Counted from the first letter of the stretch, positions 1-40,236 are shown. The stretch is DNA of 40,236 nt from a virus (IMGVR_UViG_3300033067_001247:1-40236); one strand, 5' to 3'. A program made the numbers and translations. Notes: generated from the sequence alone by a model not told the origin.

Positions 1-79
1 AGCAGTGCGAGCAGCCCGAGCAGTCCGAGCAGTCCGAGCAGCCCGAGCAGCGCGAGCAGTCCGAGCAGTCCGAGCAGTT
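1..79. repeat. 9-bp tandem repeat CGAGCAG[C/T][C/G], left part
   Basis: Visible directly: 8 full units at 8-79 plus a partial unit that continues from the right end. Confidence 0.97.
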
Positions 80-193
80 GGTACAATTATCGCAATCGAT
101 GAGGCTATCGAGCGCTTTCTGCGCTGCTTCCGTCGATCCGAAGTATTCCGCGCTGCACTTGTTGCCGCGGTCGTCTTTGAGCCATGTGGTCAT
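1..193 (-). CDS. N-terminal part of the Cys-Ser-x repeat protein (continues across the junction into 40236..39608)
   Basis: ATG at 193, just after the stop of 198..512. Reads MTTWLKDDRGNKCSAEYFGSTEAAQKALDSLIDCDNCTNCSDCSDCSRCSG... and stays open to base 1. Confidence 0.85.
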   Translation of the reverse strand, partial: MTTWLKDDRGNKCSAEYFGSTEAAQKALDSLIDCDNCTNCSDCSDCSRCSGCSDCSDCSGCSHC

Positions 194-197
194 TGGG

Positions 198-512
198 TTA
201 CTCCGTGACGTCGGCGCGAAGCATGCTCGCGGTCTGGTTTTCGATCCCGAGCCGGAACGTCAGCCGCTCGATCAGTTGCTCGCGCGTCAGCGTCAGGTTG
301 CGGCAGCGGTCGATCAGGTCTTGCGTGTCCTGCGCCAGCGCGTCCATGAGGTCGGCGGTGCGCTTCATGGCGCGCGCGGCGCGGTCCTGCGGCGAAAGCG
401 CGGCGTTCTGCACGTCCAGCGCGGCGAGGGCGGCTGCGGACAGCGCGTTGGTGACGCGAATGCTCGCGATCTCGGGGATCATCGGCCGGAACGGCATGAC
501 GCGGGAGTTCAT
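198..512 (-). CDS. Hypothetical helical protein, early-left operon
   Basis: 4-bp overlap with the upstream gene; operon context. Confidence 0.7.
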   Translation of the reverse strand: MNSRVMPFRPMIPEIASIRVTNALSAAALAALDVQNAALSPQDRAARAMKRTADLMDALAQDTQDLIDRCRNLTLTREQLIERLTFRLGIENQTASMLRADVTE

Positions 513-718
513 CGCGACACCGCCGCGAAGGTCTGGCCGAGGGCGATGAAGCCGAAGTCATCAGGCCGCGGGATCGTGAAATCGGCGCTGGCGACGGCCG
601 GCGCTTCCGAGATCGTCTCGATGGCGAGCTGGACTTCGGCGAAGGACTTGCCGGTCACCCGATATGCGGTGCGGGTCCGGTCCTTCGGATCGTGCTGGCT
701 TTCGACGTGGGCAGGCAT
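509..718 (-). CDS. Hypothetical protein, first gene of the early-left operon
   Basis: ATG at 718 with a GGAGGG ribosome-binding site just downstream of PL. Confidence 0.7.
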   Translation of the reverse strand: MPAHVESQHDPKDRTRTAYRVTGKSFAEVQLAIETISEAPAVASADFTIPRPDDFGFIALGQTFAAVSR

Positions 719-741
719 CGGCGTCCCTCCTGGATGGAAGG

Positions 742-792
742 ACGATACACCGAACGGTGTGTAAGTCAACACCGAGAAGTGTATTACGGTGT
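742..792 (-). promoter_or_regulatory. PL promoter with OL operators
   Basis: TTGACT(769-764)-16 bp-TATCGT(747-742). Operators ACACCGAACGGTGT (747-760) and ACACCGAGAAGTGT (769-782), plus a half-site ending at 792. Confidence 0.75.
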
Positions 793-1054: not shown

Positions 1055-1717
1055 CTAGCGAGAGTAGGTGCCGACGACGACGTGAACGACGGGCCATTCG
1101 GCCTTCTTTAGCCGGAACGTCCGAACTTCGGGCTGGTAGCGGCGCAAGATCCATTCGTTTGCGGTCTGGCCGACGTATTCCTTGATCGTCGCCTTGACCT
1201 CGCCGACGACCTCGCCGCCGTAGAGAATGATCCCGTCCTCGGGGCGGGGCGAAAGATGCGGATTTACAAGGACAATCTGGCCGGAGCGGTACACGGGGAC
1301 CATGGAATCGCCGGTGACGATGAGCCCGTAACCACCTCGGACGGATGCCAGCGGCGTGCCGCGGTGCTTCCAGTCGACCGGCTCCACAGTCACGATAACC
1401 GTGCCCTCCCCACCTTGCGCCGCTGCGTAAATAGGCAGATCGGCGTCGGCCCTAGAAAGATTGTTCTGAGACGCGCGATCAGCGTCTAGGGAGTATGACG
1501 AATCGTGGTTATCGAGGCGTTGTAGGTCGGGGTCCAATTCCTTCAAATCCATGCCCAGGCGCGCGGCGATGCGCGGGAAGTAGCTGGATTTTTTCGTAAT
1601 ACCGCGCTCGATCTTGTCGATGGTCTGCTGCTTGGTGCCGACATCGGTCGCCAGCTCGGCCTGTTCCATCCCGAGTTCCTTGCGGCGCGCTTTGATCTTT
1701 TGCCCTGCGGTACTCAT
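1055..1717 (-). CDS. cI: CI-like repressor (XRE HTH plus S24 peptidase)
   Basis: HTH (MEQAELATDVGTKQQTIDKIERG), catalytic GDSM and TIKE motifs; divergent from a cro-like gene. Confidence 0.92.
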   Translation of the reverse strand: MSTAGQKIKARRKELGMEQAELATDVGTKQQTIDKIERGITKKSSYFPRIAARLGMDLKELDPDLQRLDNHDSSYSLDADRASQNNLSRADADLPIYAAAQGGEGTVIVTVEPVDWKHRGTPLASVRGGYGLIVTGDSMVPVYRSGQIVLVNPHLSPRPEDGIILYGGEVVGEVKATIKEYVGQTANEWILRRYQPEVRTFRLKKAEWPVVHVVVGTYSR

Positions 1718-2192: not shown

Positions 2193-2429
2193 ATGTCGGC
2201 ATGGCAGCCCATGATCCTCGCGTTCGCGGCGATCATCGCCGGAGCGATTGAGTTCGCGCTGCTACTCCGGCTGCTGCGCAAATATATCGATCCGATGGAA
2301 GACACCCTCGATGCGTTCTTTTCGCGCGCGTCACTTGAGGACGCTTGGCGCGTTCAATCTCACACGCTTACGGCACTGTTCCTTTTCGTGCTCGCGAGCG
2401 CCCTAATTTACTTACCGCGGCGGACCTGA
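2193..2429 (+). CDS. Small two-TM membrane protein
   Basis: Two hydrophobic stretches; AAGGGAAG upstream. Confidence 0.6.
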
Positions 2430-2446
2430 TCACTCGGAGGACTGAC

Positions 2447-3139
2447 ATGGCAGACGAAGGCAGAGAGACGACGAACTTCGCGAAGTCGCAGTTGCGTGCG
2501 CTGGTCGAGCGGATCGAGCGTCTCGAAGAAGAAAAGAAGGCGCTCGCCGACGATATTCGCGAAGTGTACGGCGAAGCCAAAGCCAACGGCTTCGATACCA
2601 AGGCGCTGCGCGCAGTGGTCAAGATGCGCGGGCAGGATGCCGCCGAACGCGCAGAGTTCGAGGCCGTGGTCGAGTTGTACCGCGACGCGCTCGGCATGGG
2701 TGGCTACGTCGAAACCGATCTCGGGCAGTCCGCAGTTCGCGCCGGCATGAAGGACCCGAAGGTCCGCAAGGCCGCGAAAAACCTCACCAAGACGCTCGGC
2801 AAGCCTGTCGAACCGACCGACAAAGAAAAGGCGCGCGGCGCAACCGTTGTTGCCTTCGAGAAGGACGGCGTGCGCACCTCCATCGCGGTCGGCGACCCCA
2901 AAGGTGCTGTCGATCGAGCGGAGGCATCGGCATCGGAACGAGACCGCGTTCGACAGAACCAGGACGAAGCCGCGGCTGATATCATGGCGCCGCCGCGACC
3001 GCCGCATCCTTCGGTTGCCAATCCTCCGTTCGCGATCACGGCACCGAATCCCGGCGACGAAATGCCGGACATTCCGGAAAACCTTCGGCGCGTGCGCGAG
3101 CCCGAAATGATCGAACCCCGCGTGGCGGCGGCGGAGTAG
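2447..3139 (+). CDS. gapR: GapR/DUF2312-family nucleoid-associated protein with C-terminal extension
   Basis: [41 protein letters not shown]...LYRDALGM; GGAGG RBS before ATG 2447. Confidence 0.88.
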
Positions 3140-30968: not shown

Positions 30969-31223
30969 ATGACACAGAATCGTCACTGGCATCTCGACCG
31001 CCGCGTTCCGCTCGCGATGATCCTGACGATTGTCCTTCAGACCGCAGGCGTCATTTGGTGGGGTTCTTCCATAAACGAGCGTGTCAATCAGCTTGAAGCA
31101 AGGGCGCTCCTTACTGCACCGCAGGGCGACCGCATTACCCGCATGGAAGTGAAGCTCGAAAGCATCGAGAAATTTATGGGTCGGATTGAGCGCTTTATCG
31201 AACAGCGTCCCACCCCGAACTGA
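30969..31223 (+). CDS. Single-TM coiled-coil protein
   Basis: WHLDRRVPLAMI...QTAGVIWW followed by a coiled coil. Confidence 0.7.
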   Translation: MTQNRHWHLDRRVPLAMILTIVLQTAGVIWWGSSINERVNQLEARALLTAPQGDRITRMEVKLESIEKFMGRIERFIEQRPTPN

Positions 31224-31226
31224 ATC

Positions 31227-31345
31227 CGCCCTTCCGGGCAGATGCGCCGCCTGACGCTTTCAGGCAAGAGGCTCCCGTAGAGTCTCTGACGTTCCTCCCT
31301 GTGAACCAACTTGAGCCGCTCCCTATCCGGGGGCGGCTCTTTTTT
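31227..31345 (+). ncRNA. Candidate SuhB/MmgR (alpha-r8)-like sRNA or structured 3' UTR
   Basis: Three hairpins, then GTTCCTCCCT (31291-31300), ACTT and a terminator. Confidence 0.5.
31313..31345 (+). terminator. Rho-independent terminator
   Basis: GAGCCGCTCCC...GGGGGCGGCTC hairpin followed by T6. Confidence 0.85.
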
Positions 31346-31419
31346 CATTTGCGCCCGAAGGCTGGATGTGCCCTTCGACCCCTTGACCAACATACGTTAT
31401 ATATATCAATAAGTCGGTG

Positions 31420-31468
31420 CTGGTTTGGGACCAGAGGGTCGCAGGTTCAAATCCTGCCGCTCCGACCA
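31420..31468 (+). other. attP core: 3' part of tRNA-Pro(UGG)
   Basis: CTGG-TTTGGGA-CCAG anticodon arm, GCAGG-TTCAAAT-CCTGC T-arm, CGCTCCG-A-CCA. The 5' half is absent; adjacent to the integrase. Confidence 0.88.
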
Positions 31469-31482
31469 ATACTTAGCCGATT

Positions 31483-31516
31483 TGTTAGTAACTCTGTTAG
31501 CAACCTTGTTAGCAAC
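31483..31516. repeat. Integrase arm-type sites, 3 x TGTTAGYAAC
   Basis: At 31483, 31495 and 31507 (12-bp period). Confidence 0.75.
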
Positions 31517-31648
31517 CCCGGTTCCCGCATCGTTCTGCCTTTTGGATAATCGCCTTGGTGATGATCCCAATAAGCAGGTTCACGTGACGCCGGATCGTCG
31601 GTGAGGCGCTCTTGATCGCAAGAAGCCGGCGGCGATGTTCTTCAAGAG

Positions 31649-32926
31649 TCACGCTGCGTTACCCTTCTTTGCTCGGAGCGCTACGCGCGCCTTGGCTACC
31701 CGGCGCGTCGGCTCGGCGCCGGGACGGACATAGATCGCTGTGGTCGTCTGAAGATCGGCGTGCTGCCCGTGTATGCGCAAGTCGTTCAGTTCCGTCTTTC
31801 CTTCCCCGGCGCTCGACATGATTGCGTTATAGCCTTCGGTGAGACCGCCGTGCCGGGCGTGCATGTTCCAGACGTTCTTCGGAACGCCTGCCTCGTCGGC
31901 CAACTCCCGAAAGAGTTCGACATAGTATCGCTTGGCGATCGGGTCGCCGTTGTCTTTCACGACCACGGCCCCGGTCCGCTCATTCTCCGGCACCGCTGCA
32001 AGCGCTTGCTGAAACAGAGGGTAGGCGGAAGTATCGTACTCTGCGCCGACTGCAGTCTTTGACCGCACCACCGAGAGACTTCCAGACGCGAAGTCTTCGA
32101 AGCGAAGTCCGGGCCGCCAAACCTTGCCGGTACGCACGATCTCGCCCGGAGTAATGTCGCGGCGTCCCTTGATCATGATCCATTCGCCGATGACATCGAT
32201 CTGGCTCATGGTGAACTCGAACTGTGCCGCAACGCCGAGGGCGACACGGGCATGCCGCTTCGTGCCCTTGGCAAGACCTTTTTTCACGATGGCTTCCGCT
32301 TGGGCAAACGTCATCGCCACACGCTGCTTTTTCGGCTGCTCGCGTTCTTCCGGGACGCGAAAGGTCACCTTTGACAGAATCGTATCCAGCCGGAAGCAAG
32401 GCTCGTAGTTGCAGAAGATGCCGTAGTTTATAAGGACCCGCATCATCTGCTGCACGCACATGCGCGCGAGCCGTTCACGCGGCGGGCCGTCAGTCCCCGG
32501 CGGCCGGCGAATGTTCTTATACATTTCGAACAGATCTTTGCCGGTCAGCCGCGCTAACACTCGCTTGCCGTTTGTGCGCTCAAGAATCCCGCAGAGATAA
32601 TCGTATGAACGCTGCGTGTTCTGCCGCAGCGATCTATAGGGGCTGTCTTTGTCGCTCTGGTAGAGTCTGATCAGCGTGCCCAGCTTGCCGTCGAACGTCA
32701 CCTTGCGGCTGATCTCTGGCTCACCGAGCCATTCCATCATTTCCTTCTGCAGTCGGCGACAATGTTCTTCGAGCGAGGCTGCCGACTCTGCGCTTCCGAG
32801 ATCGTAGAAAAGCCTGACGGTGCGCGGCGAGTAGCCGAGTTTGCGTGCACGCACGCTGCAAACCCAATAGAGTTCGACGCCACCCTTCCGCCGGACGCGC
32901 CTAAGTCCTGGCGCGTTGAGCGGCAT
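31649..32926 (-). CDS. int: Tyrosine integrase
   Basis: SKT, WNMHARHG and QH...TT..Y motifs; next to attP. ATG 32926 preferred as start. Confidence 0.88.
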   Translation of the reverse strand: MPLNAPGLRRVRRKGGVELYWVCSVRARKLGYSPRTVRLFYDLGSAESAASLEEHCRRLQKEMMEWLGEPEISRKVTFDGKLGTLIRLYQSDKDSPYRSLRQNTQRSYDYLCGILERTNGKRVLARLTGKDLFEMYKNIRRPPGTDGPPRERLARMCVQQMMRVLINYGIFCNYEPCFRLDTILSKVTFRVPEEREQPKKQRVAMTFAQAEAIVKKGLAKGTKRHARVALGVAAQFEFTMSQIDVIGEWIMIKGRRDITPGEIVRTGKVWRPGLRFEDFASGSLSVVRSKTAVGAEYDTSAYPLFQQALAAVPENERTGAVVVKDNGDPIAKRYYVELFRELADEAGVPKNVWNMHARHGGLTEGYNAIMSSAGEGKTELNDLRIHGQHADLQTTTAIYVRPGAEPTRRVAKARVALRAKKGNAA

Positions 32927-33221
32927 TTCCGTGTCCCCTACGGTTATAGGCTCTCTGGGCCTCACCACTGTAATCCGGCTCCCCATCCTCAGGTTCGGCC
33001 GTCATGGTGTATGCGCCGCGCGCGCCTTGCAAGTAAGCCTCAATTGCCGCGATGACGTGAGGCCAATAACGGCGGCCAAATAAGGGGTGCGGCTTCCTGA
33101 GCCCGTGCTTTTCCTCAAGATATTTCGCGAGCGACGGCCACTCCGAGGCGCGATCCCCGAGAACCGCCTGACCAATCTGCGTCTCGCTCGGAAAAAGAGG
33201 AAGGTCGGCTTTCTTCGCCAT
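32901..33221 (-). CDS. xis: Excisionase-like protein
   Basis: LEEKHGL..P.PLFGRRYWP.V; immediately upstream of int. Confidence 0.7.
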   Translation of the reverse strand: MAKKADLPLFPSETQIGQAVLGDRASEWPSLAKYLEEKHGLRKPHPLFGRRYWPHVIAAIEAYLQGARGAYTMTAEPEDGEPDYSGEAQRAYNRRGHGNAAQRART

Positions 33222-38230: not shown

Positions 38231-38601
38231 TGGTTGTTTTGTTTCTCGCCCTGGTCCCGGTAAACCTTGATGGGCGGCTCATAGACGGCGCGCATCAATT
38301 CCATGACGCGGCCCTTTGGAACGCGGTGCGTTTCGTTGCCGAGTTTGATTTCGACGAGTTCTTCGGTCGCGTCGTCGTTCTCGTTGACGCGCTCGATATA
38401 GCCGCGAAGGCGTGCGTTCTCGATCTCGCTGGCATGAAGCCGCGTTTTCAGATCGGCGAACTGTTCGCGTGTGTCTTTCTCGCGTTTCTCAGCGGCGGCG
38501 GCGCGGGCGCTCGACTTCTGCCGATCGTTGGACTCGGCGGCGAGGAGTTCGCGGACTGTCGCAAGCGTTGCTTCGAGCGACTTGATCGTCTTTCGCATCA
38601 T
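38215..38601 (-). CDS. Coiled-coil hypothetical protein
   Basis: ATG overlaps the exonuclease stop. Confidence 0.6.
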   Translation of the reverse strand: MMRKTIKSLEATLATVRELLAAESNDRQKSSARAAAAEKREKDTREQFADLKTRLHASEIENARLRGYIERVNENDDATEELVEIKLGNETHRVPKGRVMELMRAVYEPPIKVYRDQGEKQNNHWTNY

Positions 38602-39611
38602 CCGGCCCTCATGATGTCGCGGCGAAGCTCGGGGGACGCGGTGTCCGGCAGGTTGCCGATCACGGGATCGTCGAAGAAGTCGATGAGCCCGGCGTCGGCC
38701 AGCGCCATCTCGCGCTCGACCCAGCGGGTCTCGGCATAGTTCGGGTAAAGCGGTAGCGTCGGTTCGAGCGGATACCCCGGCCACTCGTTGGTCTCGTAGC
38801 AGCGCCGCCAAATCTGGATCGCGGCGGCGAGCTTGCGGCGGCCCAGCGTGAGCGAGGATTCCGGTATCTCGCACGGCGTAATAGCGAAGGGCGCGTAGTT
38901 CTCCTGCGCGACGAAGCGGAAGCGGCGGCGGCCGGCGTTATCGGGGTCGAGCACATCAAGCCCGCGCTCGATCATCGCGGCCTGCACGTCCCAGCCGTCG
39001 TCACACATCTTGTTCGGGATCGCTTGCGGGGCAGCGGACGCAGCCGTCGATTTCAGGTCATAGACGACGCGGCAATCCGTGGTCAGCCAGTCGATCATGC
39101 AGCGGAGCCAAAGGCCGTCTTCCTGCCAGGCAAGCACGACTTCGCCGAAGCCTTGCCCCTCTGCAAAGGCGTCAGCCCAGCCCACGGCCGCCAGCCCGCG
39201 CCGCGTGTTCTGCACCAAGGTCACAGCACGCTCGTAATGCGCCGCGATGATCGGCTCTTTGCCGTCCTCGATGGCCTTCGCCTTGAACGCCTGCGCGTCC
39301 TTTTTCTGCCAGTTCGCGAACTCGGCTGGTGCGATCGCGATGTCCTTTCCGCGCCCGATGAGCAGCGAGTGCGACGCGTTCCCGATGGCTTTGGTCTTGT
39401 TGTATTTCTCGGGCTCGTCTTCGGCTTCCGGCGGGCTGAGCCGGGGATGCTCGTGGAACGCATGCAGCGGCGATTGCTCAAGCAGCACCTTGGCGAGGGA
39501 CTGGTTGAGGCTCGGTGCGGGGCATGGATCTTGAAAATAATCCGCCGCCGGCATCTGATAGATGCCGGGCTTTGTGATCTTCTGGCCTGCTTCGAGAAGG
39601 ATCGGGGTCAT
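38598..39611 (-). CDS. RecE/exonuclease VIII-like PD-(D/E)xK nuclease
   Basis: PGIY...Y, GNASH, RCMIDW...DLKST, QAA and WPGY motifs. Confidence 0.85.
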   Translation of the reverse strand: MTPILLEAGQKITKPGIYQMPAADYFQDPCPAPSLNQSLAKVLLEQSPLHAFHEHPRLSPPEAEDEPEKYNKTKAIGNASHSLLIGRGKDIAIAPAEFANWQKKDAQAFKAKAIEDGKEPIIAAHYERAVTLVQNTRRGLAAVGWADAFAEGQGFGEVVLAWQEDGLWLRCMIDWLTTDCRVVYDLKSTAASAAPQAIPNKMCDDGWDVQAAMIERGLDVLDPDNAGRRRFRFVAQENYAPFAITPCEIPESSLTLGRRKLAAAIQIWRRCYETNEWPGYPLEPTLPLYPNYAETRWVEREMALADAGLIDFFDDPVIGNLPDTASPELRRDIMRAG

Positions 39612-40236
39612 TCCACACCCGCCCGGCGCTTCATGTCGGCCATGGCTTGCTCGTTCGTCTCGTAGAAGCGAACAGGCGAGATCGGCGATCCGCTTGCGCG
39701 ATGGATCAGTTGCGCGGCGAGCGCGGTATTGTGGAAACGCTCGAGGGCGTATCCGGCTTCGCCGGCAAGGTGGACGACCCAACCCGCGCGGCAGTGCGTC
39801 GTGTTGCAGGTGTGCCAGTCGCTCATTTTGAGCGCGTCAGGCTTTGATGCTGCCTCGTACACCTTGATGTCGATATTATCGATGACCGGTACGGGCGGCG
39901 GACCGGACCAATCCGAGTTCGGGTCGCCTTTAAGGTTCTGCTTGTCGCGCAGGTAGGCGACATGCGAGCAGCCCGAGCAGTGCGAGCAGCCCGAGCAGCG
40001 CGAGCAGTCCGAGCAGTGCGAGCAGTCCGAGCAGTCCGAGCAGTCCGAGCAGTCCGAGCAGCCCGAGCAGTGCGAGCAGCCCGAGCAGTCCGAGCAGTCC
40101 GAGCAGCCCGAGCAGTCCGAGCAGTCCGAGCAGCGCGAGCAGTCCGAGCAGCCCGAGCAGCCCGAGCAGCCCGAGCAGCGCGAGCAGTGCGAGCAGCCCG
40201 AGCAGTCCGAGCAGTGCGAGCAGCGCGAGCAGCCCG
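39608..40236 (-). CDS. C-terminal part of the Cys-Ser-x repeat protein with CxTTHCRAGW domain
   Basis: Frame is open from the contig end through the repeats into ...PVIDNIDIKVYEAASKPDALKMSDWHTCNTTHCRAGW; ATGA overlap with the exonuclease gene. Confidence 0.88.
   Translation of the reverse strand, partial: GCSRCSHCSDCSGCSHCSRCSGCSGCSGCSDCSRCSDCSDCSGCSDCSDCSGCSHCSGCSDCSDCSDCSDCSHCSDCSRCSGCSHCSGCSHVAYLRDKQNLKGDPNSDWSGPPPVPVIDNIDIKVYEAASKPDALKMSDWHTCNTTHCRAGWVVHLAGEAGYALERFHNTALAAQLIHRASGSPISPVRFYETNEQAMADMKRRAGVE
39965..40236. repeat. 9-bp tandem repeat CGAGCAG[C/T][C/G], right part
   Basis: 30 full units at 39965-40234 plus a partial unit. Confidence 0.97.

What the first reader, a model, noticed from the sequence alone, without database searches (positions are those of the whole stretch)
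39608..40236. Cys-Ser-x repeat protein with a four-state variable position and a CxTTHCRAGW domain
Seen: about 39 consecutive C-S-x units (41 Cys at period 3 counting CDN-CTN). TGC-TCG is invariant, and the x codon is [G/C][A/G]C (D, G, R, H) in aperiodic order, apart from the terminal CAT. A Pro linker and a Cys/His domain follow, and the gene is coupled to the RecE-like gene. From memory, this C-terminal domain is usually preceded by pentapeptide repeats in phage proteins, so the repeat module seems exchangeable. Inference: a Cys-cored beta-solenoid or metal-binding rod whose length and surface charge pattern can be reshuffled in frame by slippage or recombination. It may be a fast-evolving early anti-host or DNA-mimic protein, and is the best candidate for an undescribed system here.
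Basis: partly seen in the sequence, partly recalled or inferred. Interest (0 to 1): 0.82.

Follow-up and report, generated by a model that had tools for sequence, protein, structure and literature searches.

The report
Phage cysteine-ladder protein, swappable repeat rod
A temperate phage carries a gene, split across the two ends of the assembled sequence, whose protein has a cysteine at every third residue; it belongs to a large family of unknown function, and the variable ladder likely forms a thin rod that is predicted to tune binding to a host defence protein.

Summary
The array is real and coding. The stated coordinates hold 30 Cys-Ser-x units; 39 units (41 Cys) appear only when the record's two ends are joined, and the true copy number is unverified. 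The 273-aa protein is cap + CSx ladder + conserved HxCxTTHCRAGW domain, third gene of a repressor-flanked early operon. The domain has 1,839 relatives at the 50% cluster level, no Pfam or NCBIfam match, and a confident model without a PDB match. Among the best 150 relatives it follows pentapeptide repeats in 56, Cxx ladders in 36 and LRRs in 3, so the swap is confirmed, but it is rare on a tree. RecE coupling is local only: one related contig lacks the gene. Array charge argues against DNA mimicry. Best reading (0.45): an accessory counter-defence or host-binding rod tuned by unit conversion, by analogy to Vibrio phage 24 gp60, whose published escape mutations I map into its repeat. Five literature searches found no description of the family. 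The scan had noted it before on other DNA.

The parts
95..193 (-). Start of the gene and 33-aa N-terminal cap (hairpin plus helices in the model of homologue P0004)
   Evidence: 59 of 64 proteins found with this cap also carry the C-domain
1..94 (-). First part of the ladder: CDN, CTN, 8 CSx units and 4 nt of the unit cut by the record end
39962..40236 (-). Second part of the ladder: 5 nt of the cut unit and 30 CSx units, x = D, G, H or R
39902..39961 (-). Linker closing the ladder and leading into the Pro-rich stretch
39608..39901 (-). Conserved mainly helical C-terminal domain with HxCxTTHCRAGW motif (PHROG 31265 C-terminal part)
201..204 (-). GGAG ribosome-binding site 7 nt before the ATG; it serves the exonuclease start in the allele that lacks the gene
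   Evidence: function inferred
742..782 (-). Leftward sigma-70-like promoter (769-742) overlapped by two ACACCG-NN-CGGTGT palindromes (747-760, 769-782), likely repressor operators
   Evidence: consensus matches only
198..721 (-). Two small unknown ORFs (70 and 104 aa) between the promoter and the gene
1055..1717 (-). CI-like repressor (HTH_3 + Peptidase_S24); two more palindromes at 1731-1744 and 1787-1800
38598..39611 (-). Exonuclease VIII (RecE-like) gene, ATGA overlap with the stop; a neighbour, not a conserved partner

Best explanation
This is a real accessory gene in a temperate phage's likely early operon, whose Cys-Ser-x ladder is predicted to fold into a thin cysteine-cored beta-solenoid that likely binds a host protein, most likely a defence component, while unit loss, gain and conversion would retune its length and surface. 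Shown: the frame, the three-part layout, the family size, other repeat types in the same slot, length variation across phages, and one allele without the gene. Inferred: (1) expression from the leftward promoter on infection or induction; (2) each unit puts Cys inward, Ser in a one-residue strand and x (D, G, R, Y, N, H) on a turn, like the last three residues of a pentapeptide unit with Leu replaced by Cys, perhaps 12 residues per coil as in beetle antifreeze protein; (3) the constant C-domain, perhaps Zn-bound through Cys/His/Cys, caps the rod or carries a shared activity; (4) misaligned recombination keeps synonymous sites uniform while selection keeps a mixture at x; (5) the target is a host defence or regulatory protein. 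My odds for the steps: coding 0.95, solenoid 0.65, repeat surface is the selected binding site 0.5, counter-defence role 0.45.
For: Coding: 62 of 80 viral loci intact, 14 cut by a contig end, 3 frame-broken, 1 missed by my pattern; C-domain differences by codon position 0.24, 0.19, 0.60 over 79 loci. Cys at period 3 persists in diverged arrays without uniform neighbours (P0139, P0157, P0172). The D/G/R/Y palette recurs in arrays with different Ser codons (TCG, TCC, TCA, TCT, AGC) and with NNC or NNT at x, while synonymous sites inside an array are nearly uniform. Same slot holds known solenoids: pentapeptide 57 of 147, LRR_4 2 of 147. Palette overlap: pentapeptide i+2 is G 54%, D 21%; Cxx position 3 is D 28%, N 17%, G 14%, R 9%, Y 8%. 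The model of homologue P0004 has pLDDT 81-96 over residues 1-50 and a beta-bridge at every third residue from 32 to 53. TmAFP has inward C, S, C, A at period 3 in a 12-residue coil (PMC8038014, passages). Accessory: a run X4 contig joins the upstream gene's end to the exonuclease start, 56 and 43 letters on the two sides. Variation in near-identical phages: L021 and L022 have 37 and 42 units with 100% identity over 1,500 bp downstream; L064 differs from L060/L061 at two x positions; P0086 and P0089 have 5 and 11 units. Analogy: deleting the pentapeptide gene 24_60 of Vibrio phage 24 raised sensitivity to Sucellos, and six escapers carried Y112R and N110N/N115D (bioRxiv 10.1101/2024.07.02.601686, passages). 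The spacing N-x-Y-x-x-N occurs once in the GenBank protein, inside the repeat, at an offset of exactly 70 residues (14 units), and TAC to CGC and AAC to GAC match neighbouring units.
Against: No function is known for any protein with this C-domain; gp60 has a different C-terminal domain (no hit with the C-domain profile), so it is an analogue only, and my mapping of its mutations is inferred without seeing Figure S7A. The middle of the ladder is modelled at pLDDT under 50 (residues 59-111), and no fold search placed it with a solved beta-helix (best: 3eev_A, Z 2.7, rmsd 3.2, 71 aligned). x shows no periodicity that would mark a binding face (lags 2-9 within 1.3 SD). Length and order differences between short-read assemblies may be assembly errors; L038/L041, L060/L061 and L074/L075 are identical. 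The empty allele rests on one 262-bp contig in one run. Some homologues have only 3-5 units (L097, L106, P0148), which suits a dispensable spacer. No expression data.
Confidence: 0.45

Rival explanations
1. The C-domain does the work (a small Zn-dependent enzyme or host-binding module) and the repeat is a rigid but interchangeable spacer or stabiliser whose length and x residues drift almost neutrally.
For: The C-domain is the conserved part (H40 invariant; W33, H34, C36, C41, R42, G44, W45 at 90% or more of 147). It accepts unrelated repeats and arrays of 3 to more than 50 units. x order is random.
Against: A spacer would not need the same D/G/R/Y mixture across independent codon sets, though turn geometry alone could impose it. 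The cap + ladder also occurs with another C-terminal domain (P0269, P0313). The fold searches gave no enzyme lead.
Confidence: 0.25
2. The ladder is a metal or thiol sponge (metallothionein-like, Zn, Cu or Fe-S) or a redox buffer that protects phage development or starves metal-dependent defence nucleases.
For: 44 Cys in 273 aa; no signal peptide is apparent, so the thiols would be reduced in the cytoplasm (inference); the modeller, which has no metal, fails in the middle of the ladder.
Against: Cys-free pentapeptide and LRR repeats fill the same slot more often. A sponge needs no conserved cap or register, yet both are kept.
Confidence: 0.15
3. The rod is a DNA mimic that blocks gyrase or restriction enzymes, as MfpA, Qnr or Ocr do (recalled).
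For: Sister proteins carry pentapeptide repeats. The window's ladder is acidic (16 D, 5 R; pI 5.16).
Against: Across 70 arrays net charge per unit runs from -0.34 to +0.20, median -0.10, with 17 positive. Acidic residues have no fixed spacing.
Confidence: 0.07
4. The protein is a partner or regulator of the RecE-like exonuclease.
For: ATGA overlap here; an exonuclease follows directly in L058 and L076.
Against: A recombination gene is the first downstream ORF in 5 of 72 mechanically chosen candidates. tblastn finds the window's RecE type in 4 of 80 loci, an undercount since it missed L058. A relative has the exonuclease without the gene, and two other RecE relatives have no C-domain within 3 kb.
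Confidence: 0.04
5. The array is an assembly artefact or the wrong frame, a target of a diversity-generating retroelement, or a heterocycloanthracin-like peptide precursor.
For: The record breaks in the array. x codons are NNC. In L039 a Cxx ladder is the antisense shadow of another repeat. Heterocycloanthracin precursors have Cys-Xaa-Xaa repeats (PMC2674419, passages).
Against: Ladders are intact in isolate genomes such as Kaistia, Phyllobacterium and Dyadobacter and in frame with cap and domain. No second copy of the array and no credible reverse-transcriptase motif lie in the window; TCA Ser codons are invariant in L027 and L071, which adenine mutagenesis would alter. No NCBIfam model matched, and the ladder is followed by a folded 100-aa domain.
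Confidence: 0.04

Closest known systems
Ralstonia phage 'putative pentapeptide repeat proteins' (RSK1, RsoP1IDN, RpY1 and relatives) and a Flavobacterium phage FL-1 hypothetical protein; PHROG 31265
   Same: Homologous C-terminal domain, 50-55% identity over 85-90% of the query, in 20 of 50,697 phage records; same cap + repeat + domain layout in the Ralstonia proteins.
   Different: Pentapeptide instead of CSx repeat and a different cap. Annotation only; a search for 'Ralstonia phage' with 'pentapeptide repeat' found no paper.
PHROG 15341 (unknown function)
   Same: Matches the cap and the ladder (profile positions 10-137 of 276).
   Different: Does not match the window's C-domain, so its members likely end in another domain (inferred from profile coordinates).
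Vibrio phage 24 gp60, counter-defence against Sucellos (bioRxiv 10.1101/2024.07.02.601686; passages read)
   Same: Small phage gene with a near-perfect in-frame DNA repeat that is hard to assemble; its unit variants use the same codons (CGC/TAC, GGC/GAC, AAC/GAC).
   Different: Pentapeptide repeat and an unrelated C-terminal domain. An analogue, not a family member.
Beetle antifreeze proteins TmAFP and DhbAFP (PDB 1EZG; PMC8038014, passages read)
   Same: Inward-facing small residues at period 3 in a 12-residue beta-helix.
   Different: Secreted, disulfide-bonded, with a TCT ice-binding face; the phage ladder has Cys at every inward position, no TCT face and no periodicity at four units. Not retrieved by fold search.
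Heterocycloanthracin precursors, TIGR03601 (PMC2674419; passages read)
   Same: Cys-Xaa-Xaa repeat with indels of whole units.
   Different: Short leader plus core, dependent on maturation enzymes; here the repeat lies between two folded parts and no NCBIfam model matched.

Membership tests
PHROG 31265-type phage repeat + HxCxTTHCRAGW domain proteins | Homologous C-terminal domain | tested here: met
   E 8e-24; tblastn to Ralstonia phage proteins E 2e-18
PHROG 31265-type phage repeat + HxCxTTHCRAGW domain proteins | Cap and tandem repeat before the domain | tested here: met
Pentapeptide repeat proteins (PF00805; MfpA/Qnr-like) | A(D/N)Lxx repeats | tested here: not met
   No Pfam match for either piece; the repeat is CSx
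Pentapeptide repeat proteins (PF00805; MfpA/Qnr-like) | Consistently acidic rod surface (DNA mimicry; recalled criterion) | tested here: not met
   Charge per unit -0.34 to +0.20 in 70 arrays; sequence-level test only
Vibrio phage 24 gp60 anti-Sucellos type | Shared C-terminal domain | tested here: not met
   No hit of the C-domain profile in phage 24; gp60 tail matches PHROG 37032
Vibrio phage 24 gp60 anti-Sucellos type | Suppression of a host defence system | not testable with these tools
   Needs infection assays
TmAFP-like 12-residue beta-helix | Period-3 inward small residues | tested here: met
   Cys at period 3; bridges at every third residue in the model
TmAFP-like 12-residue beta-helix | Structural superposition with 12 residues per coil | tested here: inconclusive
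   Low-confidence ladder; no row above Z 2.8
Heterocycloanthracin / TOMM precursors | Leader matching TIGR03601-type model | tested here: not met
   0 NCBIfam families at E up to 1 for 10 proteins
Heterocycloanthracin / TOMM precursors | Maturation enzymes in phage or host | tested here: inconclusive
   None among the window ORFs scanned (not all ORFs); host unknown
Diversity-generating retroelement target | Template repeat and reverse transcriptase in the element | tested here: not met
   Only the two array pieces exist; one RT-like motif in a 103-aa off-strand frame. Action in trans is not excluded
Diversity-generating retroelement target | Variation confined to template adenines | tested here: not met
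   TCA invariant in 31 of 31 units of L071; T, I, A nearly absent at x
Metallothionein-like metal sponge | Multiple bound metal ions | not testable with these tools
   Needs ICP-MS or spectroscopy

The most novel reading that the evidence does not exclude
The CSx ladder is a new minimal solenoid, three residues per face with a reduced or metal-threaded cysteine core, and phages use it as a programmable binder: recombination among 9-bp units rewrites the exposed residues, a reverse-transcriptase-free diversity generator aimed at host defence proteins. It would be one of several interchangeable rods (CSx, pentapeptide, LRR) mounted on a shared domain of new fold, and the gp60 escape mutations would be the first seen case of such unit conversion.
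Probability: 0.27. Interest if true: 0.82.

Novelty: new variant of a known kind. Interest (0 to 1): 0.55.

Why it matters
The C-domain family is large (1,839 clusters at 50% identity), occurs with hosts from several phyla, and has no Pfam or NCBIfam model, no solved fold match and no description in the searches run. A cysteine at every third residue for up to about 60 units is an unusual protein architecture and a possible new repeat scaffold. The arrays often break assemblies (14 of 80 loci), so the genes are under-annotated. If unit conversion tunes counter-defence, it gives a direct, testable route for fast phage adaptation. Against a higher score: this is one member of a common family, the layout is known from pentapeptide sisters, and no function is shown.

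Tried and rejected
Pfam, NCBIfam and PADLOC scans of the two pieces: no match. PDB by sequence profile: two rows at E near 1, noise. Fold searches: nothing at E 0.001 or better in PDB, best VIA Z 3.4 (rmsd 3.2, 75 aligned) for the C-domain and 2.8 for the full-length homologue; this shows neither a new nor a different fold. BFVD: one close row (TM 0.77 by target) and weak rows at TM 0.53-0.59 among uncharacterised viral proteins, the named ones from a Gordonia phage. ESM Atlas: only unnamed viral clusters and two pentapeptide clusters for P0001; no named hit for cap + ladder. Sequencing runs: no RNA holder listed, contigs only, so the array itself and expression could not be read. Periodicity of x: none at lags 2-9 in 65 arrays; lag 1 z = -2.5 and lag 10 z = 2.7 are unexplained. 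That pooled count includes a 62-unit antisense shadow in L039 in place of its true 34-unit array; I drop it from the quoted range. AU test for one Cxx clade did not finish in two runs; the tree is a quick tree on 99 columns with 3 starred branches, and leaves out 55 of the 150 hits plus nothing else (short, other or poorly covered rows; window added). Link between the P0269 tail and the gp60 tail: no alignment, rejected. Homodimer prediction with Zn: not run, the queue was full. Literature: searches found no paper on this family; some searches gave the gp60 preprint and one unrelated mention of a phage pentapeptide protein. The library lacks most subscription papers, and the preprint's figures and supplements could not be seen.

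Full report
What is there. The window is a temperate podophage-type genome: terminase, head-tail adaptor, major head protein, tail proteins, endolysin, replication initiator and a CI-like repressor. The record is opened inside the repeat. Tandem Repeats Finder reports 30.2 copies of a 9-mer at 39965-40236 and 8.7 copies at 1-78. Joining the ends without overlap keeps the 9-bp phase and yields a 273-aa minus-strand ORF from 193 to 39608 with 41 cysteines at period 3. The two ends are neighbours for independent reasons: homologues carry both halves in one frame, and a contig in run X4 links window position 199 directly to 39611. The copy number is open, since the record has no end repeats, a 50-nt exact repeat spans the join, and public contigs stop within a few units of the array edges.

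It is a real coding gene. It has a GGAG site 7 nt before the ATG and an ATGA overlap with the next gene. Of 80 viral loci, 62 have cap, ladder and domain in one frame, 14 are cut by a contig end, 3 have a frame break and 1 was missed by my pattern; the C-domain differs at codon positions 1, 2 and 3 by 0.24, 0.19 and 0.60. Intact ladders occur in isolate genomes (Kaistia, Phyllobacterium, Dyadobacter). One caution arose: in L039 a second Cxx ladder is only the antisense shadow of another tripeptide repeat, so a ladder alone does not fix the frame; here the flanking domains do.

Context. The gene is third in the leftward run after a sigma-70-like promoter at 769-742 that is overlapped by two ACACCG-NN-CGGTGT palindromes, with two more beside the repressor gene (6 matches in the window against 1.8 expected). 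Repressor control and early expression are inferred. Coupling to RecE is local. The first downstream ORF is a recombination gene in 5 of 72 mechanically chosen candidates, 2 of them exonucleases; tblastn finds this RecE type in 4 of 80 loci and undercounts. The X4 contig places the exonuclease start behind the same ribosome-binding site with the gene absent (one 262-bp contig). This is the behaviour of an accessory gene.

The family. The C-domain finds 243 relatives among 293 candidates at 90% clustering and 1,839 at 50% clustering. It matches PHROG 31265; cap and ladder match PHROG 15341; both are of unknown function. Pfam, NCBIfam and PADLOC give nothing. Among the best 150 profile hits my rule-based classes are pentapeptide 56, Cxx 36, LRR 3, short or none 43 (many likely fragments), other 12; Pfam agrees with 57 pentapeptide members of 147. 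In 76 genome loci the split is Cxx 34, pentapeptide 28, other 11, and 3 without my motif. Among named phages the domain occurs in 19 Ralstonia records and 1 Flavobacterium record. The swap runs both ways: 5 of 64 cap-bearing proteins lack the C-domain, and P0269 and P0313 carry cap + ladder + another domain. On a C-domain tree repeat type is strongly clustered, 9 changes against 31 in shuffles, and starred branches force only one origin. Exchange of repeat type is thus rare; change within an array is the fast process.

The ladder. Lengths are 7-53 units in the viral loci once the L039 shadow is dropped, and up to about 63 in a genome locus. Within an array the synonymous sites are nearly uniform, but different arrays use TCG, TCC, TCA, TCT or AGC for Ser and NNC or NNT for x, and still hold a D/G/R/Y mixture. 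I read this as concerted evolution of the constant block with protein-level selection at x. Adenine-specific mutagenesis does not fit: TCA is invariant in L071 and L027, and no template or reverse transcriptase is evident. Near-identical phages differ in unit number or identity in some pairs and not in others; short-read error is not excluded. Charge ranges from -0.34 to +0.20 per unit, which is not what a DNA mimic would keep.

Structure. The C-domain model is confident (pLDDT 93.5, pTM 0.86, five helices) and has no match among solved structures. His40 is invariant and Cys36, Cys41, His34 nearly so; a Zn site is a guess. For the natural full-length homologue P0004 the cap and first units are confident, with a beta-bridge on the residue after each Cys, while residues 59-111 are under pLDDT 50. 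The pattern fits Cys inward, Ser in the strand, x on a turn. The residues at x overlap those at i+2 of the sister pentapeptides, and beetle antifreeze protein shows that period-3 inward Cys/Ser/Ala builds a 12-residue beta-helix (PMC8038014, passages). The solenoid is therefore likely but not shown, and coil size is unknown.

Function. No homologue has a tested function. The nearest tested case, pointed out by an earlier scan note and checked here, is gp60 of Vibrio phage 24: deletion raised sensitivity to Sucellos and six escapers carried Y112R and N110N/N115D; the authors note that the repeat was hard to assemble and made a corrected reference (bioRxiv 10.1101/2024.07.02.601686, passages). 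gp60 lacks our C-domain. In the GenBank protein the spacing N-x-Y-x-x-N occurs once, at 40-45 inside the repeat, exactly 70 residues (14 units) short of 110-115, and the changes equal the codons of adjacent units. I infer that escape came from unit conversion in the repeat; I could not see Figure S7A. This makes it reasonable, not proven, that the variable residues of such phage rods are what the host conflict selects.

Verdict. A real, widespread, undescribed variant of the phage cap + repeat rod + domain accessory proteins. Best explanation: a tunable host-binding, probably counter-defence rod (0.45); rivals are an inert spacer for an active C-domain (0.25), a metal sponge (0.15), DNA mimic (0.07), RecE partner (0.04) and artefact or other (0.04). 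Searches found no paper on the family. The scan has recorded the same family in other genomes; those notes are not evidence. Novelty: new variant of a known kind. Interest 0.55; 0.82 if the programmable-binder reading holds (probability 0.27).

Noticed in passing
window 31421-31468 (+): Sequence resembling the 3' half of a tRNA (T-loop motif and CCA end; reading recalled, ARAGORN finds no whole tRNA), next to a 12-bp x3 repeat at 31483-31518 and the end of the 445-aa ORF; likely the attachment site.
   Followed up: partly
window 31649-32986 (-): 445-aa ORF with no Pfam or PHROG match but a C-terminal R-H...H...Y pattern that I recall from tyrosine recombinases; likely a divergent integrase.
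   Followed up: partly
window 31209-31352 (+): Weak Rfam matches below the gathering score to alphaproteobacterial small RNAs BjrC1505 and suhB; a hint at an alphaproteobacterial host.
   Followed up: partly
window 2345-3139 (+): ORF with an N-terminal stretch that I recall as GapR/DUF2312-like, followed by a long extension; not scanned.
   Followed up: no
L030:5413-7245 (+): Two tandem copies of the CSx gene with different ladders (45 and 52 CxxC) and near-identical caps.
   Followed up: no
L039:3549-4106 (-): A different 9-bp tripeptide array (about 62 x-D/N/G-A units) inside another ORF, 1.5 kb from the CSx gene; its antisense frame reads as a false Cys ladder.
   Followed up: partly
L081:12900-13322 (+): The published escape mutations of Vibrio phage 24 gp60 fit conversion between repeat units if the corrected gene has 14 more pentapeptides than the GenBank record.
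   Followed up: partly
L137 and L155 (+), upstream of the C-domain: Two further repeat types before the same C-domain: a 12-residue repeat and a roughly 22-residue LRR-like repeat.
   Followed up: no
L132 and L133: Two identical-looking copies of a pentapeptide member 37 kb apart on one Xanthomonas contig.
   Followed up: no
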